Counted from the stretch's first letter, positions 1-44,207 are shown. The stretch: 52,615 nucleotides of DNA from Escherichia phage vB_EcoP_Bp7 (NC_079181.1), one strand, 5' to 3'. Made by a program: numbers and translations. The notes: a model not told the origin generated them from the letters alone.

Positions 1-1941
1 ATGACTACTATCACCACTCAAACTATCAAATCCGTTGTTCCTGCTATCACTGCTCTGGTATATCGTGCCAAAGAGAAACAGAACTATATGCAGCCTCAGA
101 CTTGTGCTATTGCTGCCTTAGCCATCTTCAAGATGATGACGTCTTTCACTCGTGATGACGTTGTTCCTGCCATCGCGATGGTTGAGCTGGCTTCTGCTTC
201 TATTGCTGATGCCAACCGTTATAACAACGATTTGAAAGCAATGCACTATGTTGACCCAGCTATCAACCTGATTGGTTTGGCTAAGCACTTTGGCTTCATC
301 ACCATGAACGAAGACAAGTCATTCCAACAAACTGATACATGGGTTGAACTGGTTACAACCAAAGACACAGCAGTGCCATTCACTGAGCGTGTTACATCTG
401 AATCTCGTCGCAAGCCTTTCGTTAAAGGTGGCAAAGTTAAGCCATCCAAAACTCTGAAAGCTGCAATCGAATTCCTGCAAGATACTGAGTACCATGTGGA
501 GACTGAGATGGTTCGCATCATCCAGTCCATGCTTGAACAACGTACCTACGGTGGTTTGCAGATGCCAGAAGCAATCCAGACTGAACTCCATGTTTGGAAC
601 AATGCTGTAGCAATGATGAATCAGGACACACTGTATTCTGATTACTTTGCTGATAACCGTGGTCGTCTGTATCACGTAGCATGTGCTGGTCCTAACCCAC
701 AATCATCTGACTTTGCTCGTTGCTTGTATTCTCACAATGTTGAGAACATCGTTAAGAAGTTTAACGAAGATGGTTCTACTACCATTGCATACAACATGTT
801 CATGGCAGAGCTGGAAGATATTTCTGGTGGTGAATGGTGCAGTGCTAAGCGTTTAACTTATGTTGCTCAGAATCCAGCTGGTTCACTTGCTCGCATGATG
901 AACATGCCTAAAGCTGAACGTCCTTCTAAGCCATTCACTTATGTTCGTCTGGCTCTGGATTGGTTCAAGTTTGAGACTACAGGTGAGTGCGATTCTCGTG
1001 TAGGCTTTGGCTTAGATGCTAAATGTTCTGGTACTCAATATCTGGCATTCATTGCTGGTAACATGGAAATGGCTCGTGCAACAGGTCTGGTTGATTCTGA
1101 GACTAAAGCATCTGACCCATACCAGTTGAGTCTTCGTGAACTGTTGAAGCTGCTGGACAAGTCTTCAATGAAGCCATCTCCTGAAATCATGGATGAATTC
1201 TTGAATCCGAAAGCTGGTCGTAAGTTTATCAAAACTCCGTACATGGCTATCCAATACGGTGGTGGTAAAGCTGCACTAACTGGTTCATCTGACTTCATCA
1301 GCTACATGACAGAAGCACTCCAGATTCCTATGGAGAAAGCAGAAGCATTTGCTGAACTGTGTGTGGAAGCAATCCATAACGCATTGGGTGCTAAGATTAA
1401 CATGTTCATTGAGAAAGCTGCTGAAGCTGCATACAACCGTTGTGTTGAACTTGGTAAAGAGTACATCACATATCGTCACACTGATGGTCAGGTTGTAATG
1501 AAGCCTTGCTTCCCATCTCGTGAAATCTGTGAGGCATTCAGCATTCGTGTTGATAGTCAAACTCGTGTTATCTTTGGTCAGATTCAGGAGAATAAGCCTT
1601 GGACCATTCGTGAATCCAATCCAACTAAAGAAGAATTCAAGCGTACTTTCGTTGTTAACTACATTCAGGGCATTGATGCACTTGTTGCTCGTACTGTTGC
1701 AGTTAAAGCTAAAGAAGCTGGTCTTCGTGGCTTCACTTCAATCCATGATTGTTTCCGTTGCTGTTTGGCAGACGCTCCACGTATGATGGAAGTTATTCGT
1801 GCAGCATATGTTGAAATCTTCGTAACCAACAATCAGTTCGAGAATCTGTCTAAGCAACTCGGTGGCATTCAGATGTATCATGAGAACATCGTAACTGAAG
1901 AGCTTCTGATGAGCGAACACGCTTACTACTTCTGTCAATAA
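1..1941 (+). CDS. T7-like single-subunit DNA-dependent RNA polymerase, compact (646 aa)
   Basis: Palm motifs in translation: motif A GFGLDAKCSGTQYLAF, motif B RKFIKTPYMAIQYGGGK, motif C SIHDCF. ATG at base 1; a GGAG lies 8 nt upstream across the window junction (52604-52607) if the sequence is circularly contiguous. Confidence 0.9.
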   Translation: MTTITTQTIKSVVPAITALVYRAKEKQNYMQPQTCAIAALAIFKMMTSFTRDDVVPAIAMVELASASIADANRYNNDLKAMHYVDPAINLIGLAKHFGFITMNEDKSFQQTDTWVELVTTKDTAVPFTERVTSESRRKPFVKGGKVKPSKTLKAAIEFLQDTEYHVETEMVRIIQSMLEQRTYGGLQMPEAIQTELHVWNNAVAMMNQDTLYSDYFADNRGRLYHVACAGPNPQSSDFARCLYSHNVENIVKKFNEDGSTTIAYNMFMAELEDISGGEWCSAKRLTYVAQNPAGSLARMMNMPKAERPSKPFTYVRLALDWFKFETTGECDSRVGFGLDAKCSGTQYLAFIAGNMEMARATGLVDSETKASDPYQLSLRELLKLLDKSSMKPSPEIMDEFLNPKAGRKFIKTPYMAIQYGGGKAALTGSSDFISYMTEALQIPMEKAEAFAELCVEAIHNALGAKINMFIEKAAEAAYNRCVELGKEYITYRHTDGQVVMKPCFPSREICEAFSIRVDSQTRVIFGQIQENKPWTIRESNPTKEEFKRTFVVNYIQGIDALVARTVAVKAKEAGLRGFTSIHDCFRCCLADAPRMMEVIRAAYVEIFVTNNQFENLSKQLGGIQMYHENIVTEELLMSEHAYYFCQ

Positions 1942-36647: not shown

Positions 36648-37106
36648 ATGGCTTGTGAATTGCTTCAACGTGAATTCACAAACTCCAAAGGTGAAACAGT
36701 GTTAGTCGTTGTTCGACAATTGTCGGCTTCGGCTGCACTGTCTCTTCACGCGGAGTTGGTAAGCAAGCTAGGCTCACGAGTATTCCCATTCATCGAAGGC
36801 AAATATAACTTCGCTGATATTATATACTTGATGCAGCAAGTGGAGCATACCGTATTCACAGAATTGTTTAAGCGTGTTATCAGCATGCACTCGTCCATAG
36901 ATGGACAAGAAATCAAACCTGCATTATATGATATGCAGTTTAATGGCGAATTGATGTTGTCTTGCCATGTCTTTGCTTTCGTGCTCGAAGCAAACTTCCT
37001 TGATTTTTTCAAGCAAGGGCTCGAAATCAACGAACAGAGACGATTGGAGGCGGAGGAAGCATCCAAGCTGGCAGAGCAGAAGAATTCGAGTCCGGAGACA
37101 GTTTAG
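36648..37106 (+). CDS. putative tail assembly chaperone (152 aa)
   Basis: Position between tube and tape measure; acidic C-terminus. Confidence 0.4.
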   Translation: MACELLQREFTNSKGETVLVVVRQLSASAALSLHAELVSKLGSRVFPFIEGKYNFADIIYLMQQVEHTVFTELFKRVISMHSSIDGQEIKPALYDMQFNGELMLSCHVFAFVLEANFLDFFKQGLEINEQRRLEAEEASKLAEQKNSSPETV

Positions 37107-37265
37107 TATCCCTGTTCCCCGACATAAAATATTTTCTGCATCGTCCTATAATCGAAGACAGTTCTCTTTGCAAGTTACATGAATTGCAAGATGGAACCTA
37201 TTCGATTATGGACTTATTGCTATTCCACGACATTCTCGATTTGCGTAAGAAACTCGAACCAGTAG

Positions 37266-40200
37266 ATGAAGACAATGGCTAATCAAAAAGATTTAATGAA
37301 GTTGAGCGTTAATGAGTTAATTGCATTAGGCTCTCAAAGCGGTCTGACTTTCCACGCTGGTATGAAGAAGTCGCACATGGTTCAACAACTTAGTGCGAGC
37401 GCTGCTTCGGGATGGCTGGATACAAATGCAGAATTAATGGGTGGGTCGTTTGAAGACGACAGTTTAATTACTGAATCTCTGGGCGACTCTTCCATGATTT
37501 CAGACGCTGCCCACATTGCACAAGTGCTTTCAAGTGCAGGCTACACAGAAGCATTTCATGCAGCAATGAATGGCCCATCACACCATGTAGAAGCTGTTCA
37601 CGCATACATGGAAAGGCTTGGTGTCAACACAGACGATGTGTGGATGCACATGCCAAAGCCAAATCCGAACTTACCGCAAGGTAGTTTCAATATGCTTAAT
37701 GCCTATATGCGAGATACTTTGCAAGGGCATCAAGACATTATGCCGGAAATCCCAGGCCATTATGCTGGCGATATTATGGCAGAATACTCCACCAACCGTG
37801 GAAACATTGCTGACTCTTATAACTACATGGCCCACATGTATGTTGACCGAGAGCAATACAGCAATCATGAACAATACGCAAGAGACATTAGTCGAGTTGC
37901 CAAACGTCTGGAACGAGAGTTACCCTCAGCCTTTAAGGAAGTTGGGTATACATCTGCATCTAATGTAGGAAATAAATCGGCCCCACATATTTCTTACATG
38001 GACGCACTCCCTCAGATTGGCTCTCCTTCAATTGTTTCTGGCATTGCACATCCTCGTGCGCCCCTTAACGCATCTGGACTTCCTCTCGGTTCTTATGGTT
38101 CTGGCATAAATCCAGAATACTCCCTCACTGCATCACTAACTGGTGGCACAGGTTGGAGCGAACCAAGCAAGGCTTTGTATTCTTCTATTAGTGAAGCTGT
38201 TAAATCTGCTGCCAAAGTTTATTCTGGCTCCAAAGGGATGCTGAATACCCGTCACGAAGTATCTGACCGTGACATGATTATGGATAGTGCAACACGCTAC
38301 ACAGATTTGGAAGAAGCCAGGAGCGGGTACGAAAACCTTCGTTCTGAACTTGCAGATGAGCCAGCTTATTCTGCATCAAGTGTTCGAGCTATTCTCGAAA
38401 ACACTTATGATAAAATGGATGCCGAACCTGTTCGCATTCCAAAGATGAAGGGAGCTTCACAGCGAGTCGATAAAGATTCACTGTCAACATCTACAGATTT
38501 TACAGCACAACTTGGGGAGGCCACCAATTGGAACTCTGCAAGAATGCGTCGTGAGGAACTTGCGATTGCAAATATGGATAGTGCTGGATTCCGTGATGTA
38601 TCAGACTATGGTACAGGACGTTCCGAGTCCCCCGTCCGATTCCATGACTTAGAACAGGGCAGCCAAGAGTGGCTGGACTTCCGTAAAAATTATGACATAA
38701 CTGGTTCAACTGTTGGAACCTTCTTAGGAAACAACCCATATACCCGACCTTGGGCTGGGATGATTGATAAGATTGGCTTATCTCGTAGTAAAGAGCACAG
38801 CGATTTCACCAAGAAGATGTTCGCTGATGGTCACAGGACGGAAGAAGAAGCACGCGCTCGTGTTGGTAAGGAATTTGGATTCGATATCAAACAAACTGGC
38901 GCTATAACAAATGACAACTATCCCGCCTTCATGTATTCTCCTGATGGTCTTATTGGGGATGATGCCATTTGGGAGCACAAGAATCCGCAAAGGGCTGGTA
39001 AGTTTGCTGACCTTCTTAAAGGCGACCATCCAGATTACATGGACCAAATTCAATTTGGCTTGCACGTTTCTGGTCGTTCTCGTGCTCTGTTCTCACAAAC
39101 CATCAACGACGAAACACGTTCACAATGGATTGAGAAGGACGAAGGATGGTACGAAAGAAACCGAAATCGCCTTGATTCTGTGCTTGGCCGTCTTGATGCT
39201 GGGCGAGAGTTTGTTAGAAACAATGCTGGGCTAGGGCGAGAAGAGCTGATTGCTGGTGCAAGAAGTGCAATGACTGGTGATGGAATCTGGAAGGATATTC
39301 GTCAAAAGTCCACTCGTGGCTATTCTGCTGCTGCTGGTACTCCAGAAGACCCGTTTATTGGCTCACGCTCTTCGTACAACCCAGAAGCATCCTACTCTGA
39401 CTACAAGCCAAACTTTGTAATGCACGAGCAAAACTTTCCAGCAACCACAGGAAACGGTGATACTGGAAATGACTCGATGGCATTGTCTGTTAAGAAAGGT
39501 ATTCTTGCTGCCCAGGAAGAAAACAGGCAGAAGGGTATTAGTGCAGATGCAGACTTTGATGGCAAAGCCGACTCAATGGGCTGGAACCGTGAAAGATTTG
39601 ATGCTGCCAATGGCGGTGGATATTCTGGCGGTGGCGGTGGTCGTGGCGGCAACTTCACAAGTGGTGGCAACTACTATGATGACTACGGTCGCATGGGTGG
39701 TTCGTTAGCTGCTGGCATTGCTGGTGGCAGTATTGGTTCAGCAACCAACGGAGTTATGCAAGCATTGATGGCGACTCCTGCTGGGCGTATGGCTGCTGTA
39801 GGCATTGGTGCTATTCAGATTGGCAATGAAGCTGCTGAATACATGAATGACTTTATCGGCAACTCGCTTGATGCTGGTGTGATAAATCCTAATGAATATT
39901 CTTCCATGTCGCAAGGCTTGGAGATGTTAGGACTCAACTCACAACAAGCGGCACGTCTGAATCAAACCACACATAGTGCCTACAACACCATGCTTAACGG
40001 CGACCCCAGCGCCGCTGTGAACATCGTTCGCGGAAGTAGGGGATTGCTCACCATAGGTGATATTCGTGCGACAGGCGGCGACCCTGTGGCCCTAGCTCGC
40101 ATCATGCAGGAAAGGGGCAAGGAGCGTGGCTGGAGTCAGGCCCGTATCGCAGGTGCTGCCGAAATGGCTGGCCTGAATGGGATGGCCCGTGCCTACGACC

Positions 40201-40991
40201 GCACGGAATACAGCCATGAGCAAGCTGGTTCGGTGGTAGAAGCGGGTAGAAACTCTGACTTTGCCGAAGGCATGGCTCAGTCAGAAATGTTGCAGGGAAG
40301 CCGCGTACGGATGCTGCCGAGCTACAACGTGCCACAAAGTGTCTTATCTAACGGTGCTTCTGTATTCGAAGCTGGTAGCGATGCACTTGACGGTGTACGA
40401 ACTGGATTCAACAAAACACGAGAATTTGCTGGAAGTGTTTACGACTTTATCGCTCAAGAAGAATCTGGCGGTAGTGAATATAACAGGGATGGTTCTCGTG
40501 TAACAAGTCGTACTGGTGCTCGTGGAATAATGCAAATTCTTCCTTCAACTGCCCGTGACCCAGGATTTGGAATCAAGCCGTCTGATGGAACTCCAGAAGA
40601 TGATGCACGAGTTGGTCGTGAATACTATGACGCAATGTACAAGCGTTATGGCGACCACGAAAAGGCAATGGCTGCTTACACCGATGGTCCTGGCACTGTT
40701 GACAAAGCTATTGACAAGAATGGGCTGGATTGGCTAACTGCTGTTCCTGCACAAGCACAGAATCGCGTTAAAGCATTCCGTGAATGGTCCAAGTCTTCTC
40801 AGTCTTTGGAAGAAGGTGCTACAGGGTTTACCCGTAATGGAATGTCATACGGACAAACCCAAACTGTTGTTAATGTTAAGATTGATGCTAAGGTCAACAA
40901 CCAGACTGCTTCTGCTACAGTTGCAATTCCTGGTGGCCAGACTGTGACTCAACAAATGAACATGAACAACGGTGCGCAACAAAGAAGGTAA
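37266..40991 (+). CDS. tape-measure-like protein with embedded YqaJ-like PD-(D/E)XK nuclease domain and C-terminal lytic transglycosylase domain (1241 aa)
   Basis: Rho_N/SAP-like N-terminus; YqaJ-like EQGSQEWLDFRKNYDITGS with SPDG...IWEHK (D-x10-ExK) around 38630-39090; Gly-rich hydrophobic segment; SLT-like QEESGG...TGARGIMQILPSTA around 40450-40750. Confidence 0.7.
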   Translation: MKTMANQKDLMKLSVNELIALGSQSGLTFHAGMKKSHMVQQLSASAASGWLDTNAELMGGSFEDDSLITESLGDSSMISDAAHIAQVLSSAGYTEAFHAAMNGPSHHVEAVHAYMERLGVNTDDVWMHMPKPNPNLPQGSFNMLNAYMRDTLQGHQDIMPEIPGHYAGDIMAEYSTNRGNIADSYNYMAHMYVDREQYSNHEQYARDISRVAKRLERELPSAFKEVGYTSASNVGNKSAPHISYMDALPQIGSPSIVSGIAHPRAPLNASGLPLGSYGSGINPEYSLTASLTGGTGWSEPSKALYSSISEAVKSAAKVYSGSKGMLNTRHEVSDRDMIMDSATRYTDLEEARSGYENLRSELADEPAYSASSVRAILENTYDKMDAEPVRIPKMKGASQRVDKDSLSTSTDFTAQLGEATNWNSARMRREELAIANMDSAGFRDVSDYGTGRSESPVRFHDLEQGSQEWLDFRKNYDITGSTVGTFLGNNPYTRPWAGMIDKIGLSRSKEHSDFTKKMFADGHRTEEEARARVGKEFGFDIKQTGAITNDNYPAFMYSPDGLIGDDAIWEHKNPQRAGKFADLLKGDHPDYMDQIQFGLHVSGRSRALFSQTINDETRSQWIEKDEGWYERNRNRLDSVLGRLDAGREFVRNNAGLGREELIAGARSAMTGDGIWKDIRQKSTRGYSAAAGTPEDPFIGSRSSYNPEASYSDYKPNFVMHEQNFPATTGNGDTGNDSMALSVKKGILAAQEENRQKGISADADFDGKADSMGWNRERFDAANGGGYSGGGGGRGGNFTSGGNYYDDYGRMGGSLAAGIAGGSIGSATNGVMQALMATPAGRMAAVGIGAIQIGNEAAEYMNDFIGNSLDAGVINPNEYSSMSQGLEMLGLNSQQAARLNQTTHSAYNTMLNGDPSAAVNIVRGSRGLLTIGDIRATGGDPVALARIMQERGKERGWSQARIAGAAEMAGLNGMARAYDRTEYSHEQAGSVVEAGRNSDFAEGMAQSEMLQGSRVRMLPSYNVPQSVLSNGASVFEAGSDALDGVRTGFNKTREFAGSVYDFIAQEESGGSEYNRDGSRVTSRTGARGIMQILPSTARDPGFGIKPSDGTPEDDARVGREYYDAMYKRYGDHEKAMAAYTDGPGTVDKAIDKNGLDWLTAVPAQAQNRVKAFREWSKSSQSLEEGATGFTRNGMSYGQTQTVVNVKIDAKVNNQTASATVAIPGGQTVTQQMNMNNGAQQRR

Positions 40992-41064: not shown

Positions 41065-42174
41065 ATGCCGTGGCTACGCAGAGTTGAAGTAATAGTTTCA
41101 CGTAAAGAAGACCCAAGCATTCGAACAGTATTTAAATCACATCGTATTGATTTTGAAGTCCGTTCTACTGTTGGGTGGCCCGCCGATACAGCAAACATAA
41201 CTCTGTTTAACTTGTCGTTAGAAGAAGTTAAGTTCCTCCAGGACAAGTCCTACGGAGATATGTATATTGAAATTCGTGCAGGGTATGCAGAAGATGAACG
41301 TTCAGACTCTAGTGGCGGGACTTCTAGTGGCGGTGTTAAGAAGTTTGGCCAGAAGGCTGAACAGAGTGACCGCGTAACAGTGTCTACATCACTACCAACC
41401 ATCTTCTCCGGAATTATTACAAACGCAGTTGGCTATAGAAAGCCTCCTGAACATGTAACACAGTTGTTTTGTATTTCCAAGGCATATGGTGCATCCACTG
41501 ATTTCAAACAGTTGACCGCAATCAAGCCTGGAACCAAACTCATTGATGCAATGCGCTCAATGTGTTCCGACTATGGGTTCAATACCATCTCTACATTTGG
41601 TGTTGAAGATTCGGTCCTTGAAACAGTGATGCCTCGTGGGCGTGTGTTCCATGACACGTTCTTAAACGAATTTCGTAACATGCTTGGCGAATACAATTTG
41701 TTATACACTGTTACAACTGGTGAAGTGCAAATCTTCCCAGATACCTTTGGTGATAAAGATGCTGTAAACAGAATGTCTAAAGACAGAGAGCCAGTCCAGC
41801 TAGATGAAGACTCTGTTATTGGCAACCCTGTTGCTGGAATCTGCACCTACACTTTAAATACATTCCTAAACCCATCTTTCCAACCAGGTATGATTCTTGA
41901 TGTATCTCCTTTGCTCGGTAAGAAGTTGCTTGCTAACGGTGTAACTTCTGTCAATGGTGAAGGTATTGTTCTTAACACTGACCAGTCTGTATTCCGGTGG
42001 GCTGTTGAGGACAAATACTTTATCATGGAAGTTGTGCATAAAGGTTCGACTCACACAACCACTTATCAAACATCAATCACTGCAATCTTGGGTGGTAATA
42101 CGATGATGGGTGGTAAGGAAGCTGCGTGGCAGGAAATGTATGCTAACAGTGGAATGGCAATGGAGTCATTTTAA
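41065..42174 (+). CDS. baseplate hub / tail protein candidate (369 aa)
   Basis: Position directly after the tape measure. Confidence 0.45.
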   Translation: MPWLRRVEVIVSRKEDPSIRTVFKSHRIDFEVRSTVGWPADTANITLFNLSLEEVKFLQDKSYGDMYIEIRAGYAEDERSDSSGGTSSGGVKKFGQKAEQSDRVTVSTSLPTIFSGIITNAVGYRKPPEHVTQLFCISKAYGASTDFKQLTAIKPGTKLIDAMRSMCSDYGFNTISTFGVEDSVLETVMPRGRVFHDTFLNEFRNMLGEYNLLYTVTTGEVQIFPDTFGDKDAVNRMSKDREPVQLDEDSVIGNPVAGICTYTLNTFLNPSFQPGMILDVSPLLGKKLLANGVTSVNGEGIVLNTDQSVFRWAVEDKYFIMEVVHKGSTHTTTYQTSITAILGGNTMMGGKEAAWQEMYANSGMAMESF

Positions 42175-43061
42175 TGTCTATCTTTGATACCGACCTCATT
42201 GGTGGTGTGTCCTCTGGCTTGAAGAATTTCAGTTATGGGCATCATCCATCTATTGTTATGTGGTCCAATGGACCTGCATCTCAGAAGGAAGAAGAGTCAG
42301 GACTGTTTGGTGGGTTTGCGAAATCTCTTGAGAGCTTGCCTATTGTTGGTGAATCTGCCGTAGAAAGTTTTAACTCTTTTAAATTCGATGCTATGGTTAG
42401 TGAAGAGCACGCATCGGAAACAACTGTAACCAAGTTCCCTGTCAGTTCTGGGTTCCTGGTTAGCGACCATGTTATTAATCAGAACAGGGTACTTAAGTTA
42501 ACCGCTGTTGCTGTCAACATGCAGAACTCCTCCATGTGGACTGCATCTGTACAAGGTTTGTCCGTTGCTTCTGGTGCAATCTTCAATAGCCCGATTATCC
42601 CAATTCTTGGTGGCATTGCTGGTGGCGTTGCTTCTGCATTTGAAACAAGCAACCGAATCCAGTCTACCTACGATTTGTTTAACAGCTTCCGTGTTACGGG
42701 GCAGAAGTTATACATCTCCACCATTCTGGGGCCTTATTTGAATTGCGTAGTAACCTCAATCAAAACCAAACATGATAAAATGTCTTCTGCAATGTTGGCA
42801 GTTGAAATTATGTTTGAGGAATTGCAGACAGTTGATGAAGATGCTCTTGCCAGCGAAGCTCGTAAAGCAATGGAATCAATGTCCGACTACTCTGAATTTG
42901 CAAAGGTTGCTCAAAGTTTGGGGATGGGTGTTCTTGGAGGTGTTCCGCTTCCTGGACTTGGTGCTCTTGGCACTCTTCCGACCAAACAGTTATCTAACTT
43001 GAAAGGTAAGTTAAGTAAACTGGCTTCTCCACTTTCTTCCATCAAGGGGCGTATCCTATGA
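42174..43061 (+). CDS. tail/baseplate protein (295 aa)
   Basis: Position; ATGA overlap. Confidence 0.45.
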   Translation: MSIFDTDLIGGVSSGLKNFSYGHHPSIVMWSNGPASQKEEESGLFGGFAKSLESLPIVGESAVESFNSFKFDAMVSEEHASETTVTKFPVSSGFLVSDHVINQNRVLKLTAVAVNMQNSSMWTASVQGLSVASGAIFNSPIIPILGGIAGGVASAFETSNRIQSTYDLFNSFRVTGQKLYISTILGPYLNCVVTSIKTKHDKMSSAMLAVEIMFEELQTVDEDALASEARKAMESMSDYSEFAKVAQSLGMGVLGGVPLPGLGALGTLPTKQLSNLKGKLSKLASPLSSIKGRIL

Positions 43062-43420
43062 TTGAGCAGGAACATCAAGCTCTAAAGCAAATTGCCGAAC
43101 TTCTGCCAACCGGATATGTGAAGAGTGTGCCTTACAGCATAAGGAAGGATGTATCGTTTGAGTTTAATGGTGTGACGGTTAAAATGTCCGCACTGTACTT
43201 AAACGAACCTTTAAACTGTTACATGTTTGACTTGGCGTGGGGAGCTACGAATAAAATATTCGGAATCCCTATTCGATGCGGTATTGATATTCTTAAGCAA
43301 TACAAGACTCCGCTCCCAAACATGTATGCAGCTAACACAGTATTCCCTGGTGAAGAAATAACAAGCTACCGACAACTCTACCTGTTCATTATTGACGAGA
43401 GTGTACTCGAACGTGGCTAG
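43058..43420 (+). CDS. baseplate protein (120 aa)
   Basis: Position; overlap with neighbours. Confidence 0.4.
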   Translation: MIEQEHQALKQIAELLPTGYVKSVPYSIRKDVSFEFNGVTVKMSALYLNEPLNCYMFDLAWGATNKIFGIPIRCGIDILKQYKTPLPNMYAANTVFPGEEITSYRQLYLFIIDESVLERG

Positions 43421-44207
43421 TCATAACAATAACCAAAATGCCCCTGACATTAACACAAGTTATCCAGGGCATATTTACAACTTCGATGCAGCAACCCAAA
43501 CTTGTGAGGTCCAGCTTGCAATCGAAAACCTGTTTGTGGGTTATGCCGAAGCCTACACCTTGCAGCCAAAACAAAGGTTGCAGGGTGTCCCTGTTCAGTT
43601 TATTCAGGGAGGCGGTTGGAGTTTAACTCATCCGGTTCCAGACGGAACTCCATGCTACGTCCATTTCTCCCAGCGAGGAATAGACCATTGGTTGTCGGAG
43701 AACAAGAGTAGTGCTGGCTTAGTAAACGGGCGACCTGCCCCAGAGTTCAGCCAACTGTTCTCCCATAATGCTGCCGTATGTACTATCGGGACTCAACCTT
43801 TGACCAAAGTTATTCCAGGATTTAATGGTGGAGTAACAGAACTGCGCAACGCAGACAGGAGCCAAAGACTAACACTGCATGGTGATGGTTTAATTGAAAT
43901 CATTACTGGTGCTGCGAAGATTCAAATCACAAAAGATTCGGAGATTCTGGTTGAAGTTACGTCGCAAGCTACAGTTAAAGCGCCGCAGATTACATTGGAT
44001 GGCGATACGACCGTTACAAAATCTTTAACAGTGTTAGGTGGCATGGCTGTATCTGGGACCAAAGATGGCTCTACTGCAACGTTCACTGGTGACTTCAAGA
44101 TGGACGGCAACATGGTTCAAACTGGCTCCCTCACTCTTAATGGTATTAAGGTTGATGGTCATACTCACACTAACCCAGAAGGCGGCGATGTTGGGCCGAT
44201 GAAATAA
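43392..44207 (+). CDS. baseplate spike (gpV-like) candidate (271 aa)
   Basis: Position before a gp25/W-like gene; beta-rich C-terminal repeats. Confidence 0.45.
   Translation: MTRVYSNVASHNNNQNAPDINTSYPGHIYNFDAATQTCEVQLAIENLFVGYAEAYTLQPKQRLQGVPVQFIQGGGWSLTHPVPDGTPCYVHFSQRGIDHWLSENKSSAGLVNGRPAPEFSQLFSHNAAVCTIGTQPLTKVIPGFNGGVTELRNADRSQRLTLHGDGLIEIITGAAKIQITKDSEILVEVTSQATVKAPQITLDGDTTVTKSLTVLGGMAVSGTKDGSTATFTGDFKMDGNMVQTGSLTLNGIKVDGHTHTNPEGGDVGPMK

What the first reader, a model, noticed from the sequence alone, without database searches (positions are those of the whole stretch)
37266..40991. Tape-measure-like protein carrying a YqaJ/lambda-exonuclease-type nuclease domain plus a lytic transglycosylase
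The 1241-aa protein sits where a tape measure is expected (after sheath, tube and chaperone-like genes, before baseplate genes). Its middle carries a complete PD-(D/E)XK signature of the YqaJ/lambda-exonuclease type: EQGSQEWLDFRKNYDITGS, then SPDG and, 10 residues later, EHK. It also has a Rho_N/SAP-like N-terminus, a Gly-rich hydrophobic segment and a C-terminal SLT-like domain. Peptidoglycan hydrolase domains in tape-measure proteins are well known; a DNA nuclease domain in a protein likely ejected into the host is not something I can place in a described family.
Basis: partly seen in the sequence, partly recalled or inferred. Interest (0 to 1): 0.75.

Follow-up and report, generated by a model that had tools for sequence, protein, structure and literature searches.

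The report
Phage tape-measure protein with built-in exonuclease
The protein that sets tail length in this E. coli phage, and is expelled from the tail at infection, carries a complete and strongly conserved lambda-exonuclease-type DNA-cutting domain plus a cell-wall-cutting domain, so the phage probably delivers a ready-made DNase with its genome, a combination no paper I found has described.

Summary
ORF 37266-40991 (+) encodes 1241 aa. It lies between a tail-assembly-chaperone gene, which has a canonical -1 frameshift site, and the baseplate hub gene. The window is a phiEcoM-GJ1-like myovirus (Chaseviridae), 100% identical here to phage vB_EcoM_Bp10.

Residues ~461-650 are a genuine YqaJ/lambda-exonuclease domain:
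- Pfam E=4e-13 over the full profile.
- A profile of the embedded domains hits LHK-Exo at 3e-37 and lambda Exo at 1e-17.
- The AlphaFold model (pLDDT 91.7) matches 3syy at TM 0.72/0.81.

The catalytic residues E526, D560, E570 and K572 are invariant in all 22 long homologs, some only ~30% identical. dN/dS for the domain is 0.06-0.12. The SLT domain is also real. The claimed Rho_N/SAP N-terminus has no profile support.

The 4HA13 homolog was found in purified virions at 64-67% coverage. GenBank labels this gene tail fiber, tape measure, tail tube initiator or endonuclease, and I found no paper discussing the nuclease.

New here: the nuclease module (aa ~401-688) is swapped as a cassette between lineages, and no Bet/RecT/Erf partner was found.

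Likely role (inferred): a virion-delivered 5'-3' exonuclease acting on DNA ends at genome entry. Verdict: a new variant of a known kind; interest 0.62.

The parts
36648..37106 (+). Tail assembly chaperone gene (G-like product, 152 aa)
   Evidence: phrog_11820 'tail assembly chaperone', E=2.5e-75. Pfam Phage_TAC_15, E=2.9e-18.
37004..37282 (+). -1 programmed-frameshift extension of the chaperone. The slippery heptamer T TTT TTC is at 37004-37010, and the GT-like fusion product is 211 aa.
   Evidence: The heptamer is in the X XXY YYZ register. The -1 frame opens exactly at 37004 and stays open to the stop at 37282, overlapping the ATG at 37266. The heptamer is conserved in the same register in Mangalitsa.
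37266..40991 (+). Tape-measure/ejection protein gene, 1241 aa (phrog_19855)
   Evidence: phrog_19855 matches over the full length at 1963 bits. The gene is 100% identical to the vB_EcoM_Bp10 gene. The homolog was detected in virions.
37266..38465 (+). Family-specific N-terminal region (aa 1-400), fold unknown
   Evidence: It is conserved (mean column identity 0.52). It has no Pfam, PDB or other PHROG match.
38466..39329 (+). Exchangeable nuclease cassette (aa ~401-688)
   Evidence: MLP1 and PYps23T are ~100% identical except in this interval, which holds 416 of their 479 mismatch columns. GJ1, MLP1 and Pel53 share an alternative allele.
38646..39215 (+). YqaJ/lambda-exonuclease-type PD-(D/E)XK domain (aa 461-650)
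   Evidence: Pfam PF09588, E=4.3e-13. Profile against PDB: 3syy 3.1e-37, 1avq 1.2e-17. AF2 pLDDT 91.7. Foldseek TM 0.72/0.81 to 3syy. dN/dS 0.06-0.12.
38934..38981 (+). Catalytic motif YSPDGLIGDDAIWEHK (aa 557-572; D560, E570, K572)
   Evidence: The motif is invariant in 11 Chaseviridae homologs. D560, E570 and K572 are 22/22 in the long homologs and 123/123 in the stand-alone exonucleases. In the profile alignment they align to lambda Exo D119, E129 and K131.
39606..39845 (+). Gly-rich segment plus Gly/Ala-rich hydrophobic stretch (aa 781-860; hydrophobic 813-853)
   Evidence: Composition and Kyte-Doolittle scan. G785, G791, G792, G817, G821, G829, G840 and G848 are invariant.
39846..40265 (+). 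Most conserved non-enzymatic core (aa 861-1000), function unknown
   Evidence: Mean column identity is 0.63 with no gaps. dN/dS is 0.08-0.15 in four of the six comparisons, 0.20 against PP101. There is no family match.
40431..40775 (+). SLT lytic transglycosylase domain (aa 1056-1170), with an invariant E1066-S1067
   Evidence: Pfam PF01464, E=3.1e-13, found in 11 of 11 homologs. Weak PDB hits to Slt70 and other SLTs. E1066 and S1067 are invariant.
41065..42174 (+). Baseplate hub gene
   Evidence: phrog_196 'baseplate hub', E=6.3e-52.
43392..44207 (+). Central spike (Gp138_N-type), the real T4-gp5 analogue
   Evidence: Pfam PF18352, E=2.2e-18.

Best explanation
SHOWN. Gene 37266-40991 is the tape-measure-position virion protein of a Chaseviridae myophage. 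It is modular:
- a family-specific N-terminal region (aa 1-400);
- a nuclease cassette (aa ~401-688) holding a complete lambda-Exo/YqaJ-type domain, with the metal-binding and catalytic residues (E526, D560, E570, K572) and the Arg that aligns with the 5'-phosphate-binding R28 of lambda Exo (R473);
- a variable linker;
- a Gly-rich, mildly hydrophobic segment;
- a conserved core;
- a C-terminal SLT lytic transglycosylase.

INFERRED mechanism. On sheath contraction the protein is expelled from the tube C-terminus first. The SLT domain opens the peptidoglycan. The Gly/Ala-rich segment helps form the inner-membrane passage. The N-terminal half, which lies nearest the leading DNA end in the virion, enters with that end. 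There the nuclease domain, probably after refolding and possibly as a trimer like lambda Exo and like tape-measure proteins, digests the 5' strand at a double-stranded DNA end.

MOST LIKELY substrate: the phage's own incoming end, which lies inside a ~3.2-kb direct terminal repeat. Resection would give a 3' single-stranded tail. Such a tail is a poor RecBCD substrate and can anneal or recombine with the other repeat copy to make circles or concatemers. The redundancy of the repeat makes the loss harmless.
For: Domain identity and integrity:
- Pfam E=4.3e-13 over the full profile.
- The embedded-domain profile hits LHK-Exo at 3.1e-37, lambda Exo at 1.2e-17 and mimivirus R354 at 1.6e-13.
- The AF2 model has pLDDT 91.7 and pTM 0.88.
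- Foldseek gives 3syy E=4.9e-11 with TM 0.72/0.81, and 1avq TM 0.67.
- E526, D560, E570, K572, Y591, Q594 and Q596 are invariant in 22 of 22 long homologs down to ~30% identity. R473 is 21 of 22.
- dN/dS for the domain is 0.06-0.12.
- It is among the best conserved segments of the protein (column identity 0.60 against 0.24 for linkers).

The YqaJ+SLT architecture is kept in distant metagenomic relatives and in an Aeromonas phage.

Tape-measure role:
- Synteny.
- The G/GT -1 frameshift directly upstream.
- A separate spike gene.
- The homolog was present in purified virions at 64-67% coverage (PMC9699118).
- Tails are 110-130 nm (PMC8472413). At about 1.5 A per residue, 1241 aa would give ~186 nm. 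Subtracting the nuclease cassette (288 aa) and SLT (115 aa) leaves 838 aa, or ~126 nm. This is my inference from the established length-ruler rule.

Genome ends: a 3,234-bp terminal repeat is predicted in Mangalitsa and a 3,120-bp one in 4HA13.

No Bet/RecT/Erf partner was found. The closest stand-alone relatives sit next to such partners. This argues for a role different from a classical two-gene recombinase.
Against: - No experiment shows nuclease activity, ejection into the cytoplasm, or the substrate.
- No Pfam or PHROG tape-measure family matches any part of the protein.
- A folded trimeric lambda-Exo-like ring would not fit a ~4-nm tube lumen, so unfolding and refolding must be assumed.
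- The phage has its own FEN-type 5'-3' exonuclease, endonuclease VII and ligase for replication and recombination, so resection by a virion protein is not obviously needed.
- Cassette swapping between alleles only 54-58% identical fits an arms-race effector at least as well as a housekeeping end-processing role.
- The terminal repeat was not verified in this window.
- The orientation of the protein in the tube is assumed from other phages.
Confidence: 0.45

Rival explanations
1. Injected weapon. The nuclease is an early effector aimed at DNA that is not the phage's own, such as host chromosome ends or breaks, plasmids, resident prophages, DNA components of defence systems, or the DNA of co-infecting or superinfecting phages. 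This would follow the logic of the 'polyvalent proteins' delivered with invading DNA.
For: The nuclease module is exchanged as a discrete cassette between lineages, with alleles only 54-58% identical while the flanks are ~100% identical. That pattern is typical of conflict genes. The polyvalent-protein concept combines lysozyme-type and nuclease domains in proteins delivered with DNA (PMC5512222). There is no annealing-protein partner.
Against: Lambda-Exo-type enzymes need a free double-stranded end with a 5' phosphate, and R473 is conserved. An intact circular host chromosome offers none, whereas the phage's own end is right there. Only about 3-6 copies would be delivered per virion (established knowledge of tape-measure stoichiometry). 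No zincin-type processing peptidase or other effector domain is present. dN/dS is low, not elevated.
Confidence: 0.22
2. Producer-cell function. The domain works late in the infected cell before or during assembly, and its presence in the virion is incidental. It might act as the phage's recombination or DNA-maturation exonuclease (by analogy with herpesvirus alkaline nuclease), or trim or grip the packaged DNA end at head-tail joining.
For: The closest relatives are recombination exonucleases of Exo-annealase modules. The phage lacks any other lambda-Exo-type gene. In other phages the tape-measure N-terminus is near the DNA end in the neck (background knowledge).
Against: Newly made tape-measure protein is held by its chaperones and threaded into the tube. 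The phage already has a FEN-type exonuclease, endonuclease VII and ligase. A late, low-copy structural protein is an odd place for a replication enzyme. The fusion is stable across relatives down to ~25-30% full-length identity, which implies that the tether itself matters.
Confidence: 0.12
3. Non-catalytic co-option. The fold is kept as a DNA-end clamp, plug or assembly module, and catalysis is irrelevant.
For: Virions lack free Mg-dependent turnover, and a ring-shaped DNA-end binder at the tube entrance is conceivable. No activity data exist.
Against: All metal-binding and catalytic residues are invariant in 22 of 22 long homologs across ~30-100% identity, matching 123 of 123 stand-alone enzymes. 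Degenerate domains normally lose these residues. dN/dS is 0.06-0.12.
Confidence: 0.08
4. Not a tape measure at all. It is a tail fibre, a T4-gp5-like spike or a 'tail tube initiator', as several GenBank records say.
For: Depositor annotations read 'putative tail fiber', 'tail fiber protein', 'probable T4 gp5 analog' and 'tail tube initiator protein'. No tape-measure family matches.
Against: The gene lies between the frameshifting chaperone and the hub. A separate Gp138_N spike, a Dit-like protein and distal fibre genes exist. No other gene in the tail module could act as the ruler. Other annotators, and the 4HA13 proteomics paper, call it tape measure.
Confidence: 0.03

Closest known systems
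Lambda exonuclease / LHK-Exo / YqaJ family (Pfam PF09588; PDB 1avq, 3syy)
   Same: Same fold (TM 0.67-0.81). Full-length profile match. It has the same catalytic D-E-K triad, the additional Glu, the Y..Q.Q motif and the Arg aligned with the 5'-phosphate pocket. By analogy it should work as a Mg-dependent 5'-3' dsDNA-end exonuclease.
   Different: It is embedded at aa ~461-650 of a 1241-aa virion tail protein rather than being a ~200-300-aa free enzyme. No adjacent or detectable Bet/RecT/Erf partner was found, whereas stand-alone relatives have one. Oligomeric state and activity are untested.
Tape-measure proteins carrying cell-wall hydrolase domains (e.g. T5 Pb2, mycobacteriophage TM4 Tmp; from background knowledge)
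   Same: Same gene position after the frameshifting chaperone. A long protein with Gly-rich and hydrophobic segments. A muralytic domain (here SLT) near the C-terminus. Present in virions.
   Different: Those carry only envelope-directed enzymes. This one adds a DNA-directed enzyme. I found no report of a nuclease domain in a tape-measure protein.
T7 gp16 and P22-type ejection proteins (internal virion proteins with an SLT domain that form the trans-envelope conduit)
   Same: SLT-bearing proteins expelled ahead of the DNA. The SLT segment here hits podovirus 'internal virion protein D' and 'DNA transfer protein' genes. Chaseviridae share T7-like RNAP and replication genes.
   Different: Those are stored in the head, not in a contractile tail tube. 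They do not measure tail length and have no nuclease domain.
Polyvalent proteins of phages and conjugative elements (Iyer et al. 2017, PMC5512222)
   Same: The concept is the same: several enzymatic domains in one polypeptide delivered together with the invading DNA, often lysozyme-type plus nuclease domains.
   Different: That survey does not mention tape-measure proteins or YqaJ. Typical polyvalent proteins are linked to MuF/portal or relaxase contexts and carry zincin-type peptidases. None was detected here.
DNA-end-protecting injected proteins (Mu gpN, T4 gp2; from background knowledge)
   Same: Virion proteins that travel with the genome end and shield it from RecBCD. The proposed outcome is the same: protection and processing of the entering end.
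   Different: Those bind ends without cutting. Here the proposed mechanism is enzymatic resection. There is no sequence relationship.

Membership tests
YqaJ / lambda-exonuclease family (PF09588, PD-(D/E)XK superfamily) | Profile match above the curated threshold over the whole domain | tested here: met
   50.2 bits against a cutoff of 22, profile positions 1-149 of 150. 10 of 11 family members match. The distant long homologs also match.
YqaJ / lambda-exonuclease family (PF09588, PD-(D/E)XK superfamily) | Restriction-endonuclease-like core fold resembling lambda Exo | tested here: met
   AF2 pLDDT 91.7. Foldseek: 3syy E=4.9e-11 with TM 0.72/0.81, and 1avq E=1.5e-10 with TM 0.67.
YqaJ / lambda-exonuclease family (PF09588, PD-(D/E)XK superfamily) | Catalytic D...E-x-K plus an upstream Glu, and the Arg of the 5'-phosphate pocket | tested here: met
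   D560, E570, K572 and E526 are 22/22. R473 is 21/22. In the profile alignment they align with lambda Exo D119, E129, K131 and R28 (residue roles from background knowledge).
YqaJ / lambda-exonuclease family (PF09588, PD-(D/E)XK superfamily) | Mg-dependent processive 5'-3' exonuclease activity; toroidal trimer | not testable with these tools
   Needs enzyme assays and oligomer analysis.
Two-component phage recombinase (Exo + annealing protein) | A Bet/RecT/Erf/Sak-type annealing protein encoded alongside | tested here: not met
   None is annotated in Mangalitsa. None was found by PHROGs among 10 candidate early/middle proteins, which yielded only an SSB. Stand-alone relatives do have such neighbours. 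Not every small ORF was scanned.
Tail tape-measure protein | Gene located directly after a tail assembly chaperone with a programmed frameshift and before baseplate hub genes | tested here: met
   TAC by PHROG and Pfam. Slippery T TTT TTC at 37004 with the -1 frame open to 37282. Hub at 41065.
Tail tape-measure protein | Component of the mature virion | tested here: met
   From the literature, for a 63.5%-identical homolog: 4HA13 LC-MS/MS, 128,217 Da, 64-67% coverage (PMC9699118). Not shown for this phage itself.
Tail tape-measure protein | Length proportional to tail length (~1.5 A per residue) | tested here: inconclusive
   1241 aa predicts ~186 nm against the reported 110-130 nm. The figures agree (~126 nm) only after subtracting the nuclease cassette and SLT. 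This is inference, with no deletion data.
Tail tape-measure protein | Sequence membership in a described tape-measure family | tested here: not met
   No Pfam tape-measure family matches at E<=1 in 11 members. The only PHROG covering the non-enzymatic parts is phrog_19855, 'virion structural protein'.
SLT lytic transglycosylase (PF01464) | Profile match above threshold with the catalytic Glu-Ser motif | tested here: met
   49.7 bits against a cutoff of 21.3. 11 of 11 members match. E1066-S1067 is invariant. Its assignment as the catalytic Glu is by motif position, not by structure.
Polyvalent proteins (Iyer et al. 2017) | Multiple effector domains with a processing metallopeptidase and a MuF/portal/relaxase-type delivery context | tested here: not met
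   Two enzymatic domains are present, but no peptidase or other effector domain was detected. The context is the tail module, not the head or portal.
Rho_N / SAP (HeH) DNA-binding motif at the N-terminus | Profile match to Rho_N or SAP | tested here: not met
   No Pfam family matches at E<=10 for residues 1-60 scanned alone. There is only a weak phrog_2250 hit (E=0.11).

The most novel reading that the evidence does not exclude
The tape-measure protein doubles as a virion-delivered 'recombination starter'. Its lambda-Exo-like domains reassemble on the entering genome end as a ring, matching the trimeric state of both lambda Exo and tape-measure proteins. They then resect the 5' strand of the 3.2-kb terminal repeat as the first enzymatic act of infection. 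This makes the end invisible to RecBCD and primes repeat-to-repeat annealing before any phage gene is expressed. The cassette-like exchange of the module would reflect host factors that inhibit or sense it.
Probability: 0.2. Interest if true: 0.8.

Novelty: new variant of a known kind. Interest (0 to 1): 0.62.

Why it matters
Tape-measure proteins are known to carry cell-wall-degrading domains. A DNA-processing enzyme in one would mean that the tail delivers an activity aimed at nucleic acid, ahead of any gene expression.

That bears on an open question: how linear phage genomes survive RecBCD and become replication-competent in the first seconds of infection. It also makes the fate and topology of an expelled myophage tape-measure protein directly testable, because a cytoplasmic enzyme activity is a built-in reporter of where the protein ends up.

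Practically, about 80 phage records carry this gene under contradictory labels (tail fiber, tail tube initiator, endonuclease, tape measure). They could be annotated consistently. These phages are also candidates for biocontrol and phage therapy, where an injected DNase is worth knowing about.

Tried and rejected
- Single-sequence AlphaFold of aa 420-688 gave pLDDT 38 and was discarded. It was replaced by an alignment-backed model.
- The search for homologous proteins was nearly empty for all three segments: the nuclease gave 1 hit, aa 781-1055 gave 2 SLT-bearing fragments and aa 1-440 gave none. It therefore gave no architecture or context information. The exhaustive representative search was used instead.
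- Attempts to assign the N-terminal 440 aa, aa 681-1055 and the C-terminal tail failed with Pfam at E<=10, PHROGs and a PDB profile.
- The Rho_N/SAP N-terminus is not supported.
- A search for an annealing-protein partner was negative among annotated genes and 10 scanned candidates.
- I considered that Pseudomonas and Xanthomonas hits to distant long homologs might reveal tape-measure homology. They were ordinary stand-alone exonucleases next to Bet/Erf/RecT.
- I checked whether the window starts at the same left end as Mangalitsa's terminal repeat. It does not align and the window ends do not repeat, so the terminal repeat of this genome was not established.
- Literature searches found no prior description: Chaseviridae + tape measure, tape measure + YqaJ, tape measure + nuclease domain, polyvalent proteins, YqaJ + virion/tail, Chaseviridae + cryo-EM, and ejection protein + nuclease. 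The phiEcoM-GJ1 genome paper was not held.

Full report
**What is there.** The ORF at 37266-40991 (+) is real and encodes 1241 aa. The gene is 100% identical to a gene of Escherichia phage vB_EcoM_Bp10. It is 95-96% identical at the nucleotide level to ST32, flopper, SKA49, DE15 and SA91KD, which are phiEcoM-GJ1-like myoviruses of the family Chaseviridae. By tblastn, 78 phage records hold a homolog covering at least 80% of it, down to 46% identity in Erwinia, Pantoea, Pectobacterium and Proteus phages; an Aeromonas phage homolog is 53% identical. Depositors label the gene 'putative tail fiber', 'tail fiber protein', 'tape measure protein', 'tail tube initiator protein', 'putative endonuclease', 'virion structural protein' or 'hypothetical protein'.

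**Context.** PHROG and Pfam scans give the following order:
- portal (28788), protease (29896), major capsid protein (31936), tail completion (34209);
- sheath (34722), tube (36181), tail assembly chaperone (36648; Pfam Phage_TAC_15);
- this gene;
- baseplate hub (41065), Dit-like protein (42174), a weak Pam3-gp18-like plug (43058), a Gp138_N-type central spike (43392), and wedge proteins (44207, 44554).

Inside the chaperone gene there is a T TTT TTC heptamer at 37004 in the X XXY YYZ register. The -1 frame opens exactly there and stays open to 37282, overlapping the ATG of the big gene. The predicted products are 152 aa and 211 aa. The heptamer is conserved in the same register in Mangalitsa. 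This is the conserved G/GT-type arrangement that precedes tape-measure genes (established knowledge). No other gene in the module could act as the ruler. The true spike is a separate gene, so the GenBank note 'probable T4 gp5 analog' is not right.

**Virion association.** LC-MS/MS of CsCl-purified 4HA13 particles detected its 'tail tape measure protein' (128,217 Da, the full-length homolog, 63.5% identical to ours). Coverage was 64-67%, among the top proteins (PMC9699118).

**The nuclease domain.**
- Pfam YqaJ (PF09588) matches residues 468-604 over essentially the whole profile, E=4.3e-13.
- PHROGs place it with RecE-like recombination exonucleases.
- The single sequence hits LHK-Exo (3syy) at E=6e-6.
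- A profile built only from embedded domains of long homologs hits 3syy at 3.1e-37, lambda exonuclease at 1.2e-17 and mimivirus R354 at 1.6e-13.
- A single-sequence AlphaFold run was useless (pLDDT 38). With an 80-sequence alignment the model reached pLDDT 91.7 and pTM 0.88.
- Foldseek returned LHK-Exo (E=4.9e-11, TM 0.72/0.81) and lambda Exo (TM 0.67) on top, followed by R354, Cas4 and MGME1.

**Is it active?**
- In 11 Chaseviridae homologs (48-87% identical overall) the stretch YSPDGLIGDD-x-x-WEHK is invariant. So are E468, W469, R473, H523, E526, R530, Y591, D593, Q594 and Q596.
- The exhaustive search of 1.84 billion representatives found 1080 relatives. Of the 150 best hits listed, 21 are long proteins (962-1534 aa), and 19 of them carry the domain at about residues 350-700; in P0020 and P0064 it lies at 668-902 and 828-979.
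- In these 21 plus the window protein, E526, D560, E570, K572, Y591, Q594 and Q596 are 22 of 22 and R473 is 21 of 22. This matches 123 stand-alone exonucleases.
- These residues align with lambda Exo E85, D119, E129, K131 and the 5'-phosphate-binding R28 (alignment; residue roles from background knowledge).
- dN/dS for the domain is 0.06-0.12 against Mangalitsa, 4HA13, PYps23T and Faunus. That is as low as or lower than the rest of the protein.
- The domain is one of the best conserved segments (mean column identity 0.60 against 0.24 in the flanking linkers).
- Distant long homologs (33-40% identical in the domain) still combine YqaJ with a C-terminal SLT.

The fusion is old, stable and under selection for catalysis.

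**The rest of the protein.**
- SLT (PF01464) matches 1061-1152 at E=3.1e-13, with an invariant E1066-S1067.
- Residues 781-870 are 28% glycine and are followed by a mildly hydrophobic Gly/Ala stretch at 813-853.
- Residues 861-1000 form the most conserved block but match nothing known.
- The N-terminal 440 residues match nothing either.
- The proposed Rho_N/SAP motif has no profile support.
- No described tape-measure family matches, so that assignment rests on position, the frameshift, virion presence and composition.
- Chaseviridae tails are 110-130 nm (PMC8472413). At ~1.5 A per residue the whole protein would predict ~186 nm. Removing the nuclease cassette (288 aa) and SLT (115 aa) leaves 838 aa, about 126 nm. 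This is my inference. It suggests that the two enzymatic modules are passengers, not ruler.

**A new observation: the nuclease is a swappable cassette.**
- MLP1 and PYps23T are ~100% identical along the protein except aa ~401-688. That interval holds 416 of their 479 nucleotide mismatch columns.
- phiEcoM-GJ1 is window-like at both ends but carries MLP1's cassette (96.7-100% shared among GJ1, MLP1 and Pel53). That allele is only 54-58% identical to the window allele. Its nearest relatives are in Aeromonas and Pectobacterium phages at 60-62%.
- This explains why ST32 ORF66 is only 76% identical to GJ1 gp62 while neighbouring genes are 98-100% identical (PMC6266442).
- Both alleles keep the active site.

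**Genome biology.** Mangalitsa's record carries a PhageTerm-predicted 3,234-bp direct terminal repeat that includes the RNA polymerase gene. 4HA13 has one of 3,120 bp. The replication module is T7-like. It includes primase/helicase, DNA polymerase, a FEN-type 5'-3' exonuclease, endonuclease VII, ligase and an SSB. No Bet/RecT/Erf-type annealing protein is annotated or was found by PHROGs among ten candidates. In contrast, the closest stand-alone relatives of the domain sit beside Bet, Erf or RecT genes. I could not establish the termini of the window genome itself.

**Most likely mechanism.**

Shown: this is a virion tail protein at the tape-measure position, with an intact lambda-Exo-type domain and an SLT domain.

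Inferred:
- At contraction the protein leaves the tube C-terminus first.
- SLT opens the murein, and the Gly/Ala-rich segment helps form the membrane passage.
- The N-terminal half, adjacent to the leading DNA end, enters with it.
- The nuclease then attacks the 5' strand of a double-stranded end.

Because lambda-Exo-type enzymes need a free 5'-phosphorylated end, the nearest and earliest substrate is the phage's own entering terminal repeat. Resection would create a 3' tail that RecBCD handles poorly and that can pair with the other repeat copy. I put ~0.45 on this overall picture, and less on the specific substrate.

Rivals:
- An injected weapon against foreign or host DNA (0.22). The cassette swapping favours it; the need for DNA ends and the tiny copy number weigh against it.
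- A producer-cell or assembly role (0.12).
- A non-catalytic clamp (0.08). The invariant active site disfavours it.
- Not a tape measure at all (0.03).

**Comparison with the known.** The domain is a member of the YqaJ/lambda-Exo family by every feature testable here. The classical partnership with an annealing protein is not met. The whole protein works like a tape-measure/ejection protein with a muralytic domain (T5 Pb2, TM4 Tmp, T7 gp16 as analogues), but adds a DNA-directed enzyme. The 'polyvalent protein' concept (PMC5512222) is the nearest general idea. That survey mentions neither tape-measure proteins nor YqaJ, and its typical hallmarks (processing peptidase, MuF/portal context) are absent.

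**Novelty and verdict.** I found no paper describing a nuclease domain in a tape-measure protein. One GenBank depositor did call the SKA49 gene 'putative endonuclease', and any InterPro-type scan would flag the domain. So the sequences are known, the fusion is unrecognised in the literature I could search, and its function is untested. I classify it as a new variant of a known kind, interest 0.62.

Noticed in passing
window 37004-37282 (within and after the chaperone gene 36648-37106): There is a canonical -1 programmed frameshift site, T TTT TTC, at 37004. The -1 frame opens exactly there and runs to 37282, giving 152-aa and 211-aa chaperone products. Relatives annotate only small separate ORFs here (e.g. 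GJ1 gp61, ST32 ORF65).
   Followed up: yes
window 38466-39329 (aa ~401-688); L005 vs L009; L001: The nuclease module behaves as a recombination cassette. MLP1 and PYps23T are ~100% identical outside it and 25-81% identical inside it. GJ1, MLP1 and Pel53 share an alternative allele only 54-58% identical to the window's.
   Followed up: yes
window 43392-44207, 42174-43061 and 43058-43420: A Gp138_N-type central spike, a Dit-like protein and a weak Pam3-gp18-like plug lie downstream. So the GenBank note calling the big gene a 'T4 gp5 analog' and the labels 'tail fiber' and 'tail tube initiator' are misannotations.
   Followed up: partly
PP952070.1 'Staphylococcus phage Pel53' 2547-6244: A record labelled as a Staphylococcus hyicus phage carries this Chaseviridae coliphage-type gene at 89% nucleotide identity, with the GJ1-type cassette at 96.7%. 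The host label looks doubtful, or the sample was mixed.
   Followed up: no
4HA13 supplementary Table S2 (PMC9699118): The phage single-stranded DNA-binding protein was detected at 62% coverage in the purified-virion preparation, alongside structural proteins. It may be carry-over, or a DNA-bound or packaged protein that could cooperate with the nuclease.
   Followed up: no
PHROG phrog_149 versus P0141, P0071 and P0020: phrog_149 ('exonuclease', 1242 profile positions) aligns with distant long homologs for 300-350 positions beyond the nuclease domain. This hints that this PHROG contains further large virion-type proteins filed under DNA metabolism.
   Followed up: no
window 1-1941 and the window ends: The window begins exactly at the ATG of a 646-aa ORF. 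It does not align with Mangalitsa's left terminal-repeat end, and the two window ends do not repeat each other. The window is 327 bp longer than MN122072 and is rotated relative to it.
   Followed up: partly
Tools: the search for homologous proteins versus search of protein representatives: The 5.8-billion-protein word-indexed search returned almost nothing for any segment of this protein. The exhaustive representative library held 11 close (48-66% identical) and ~10 distant full-length relatives. The family seems to be missing from the first collection.
   Followed up: no
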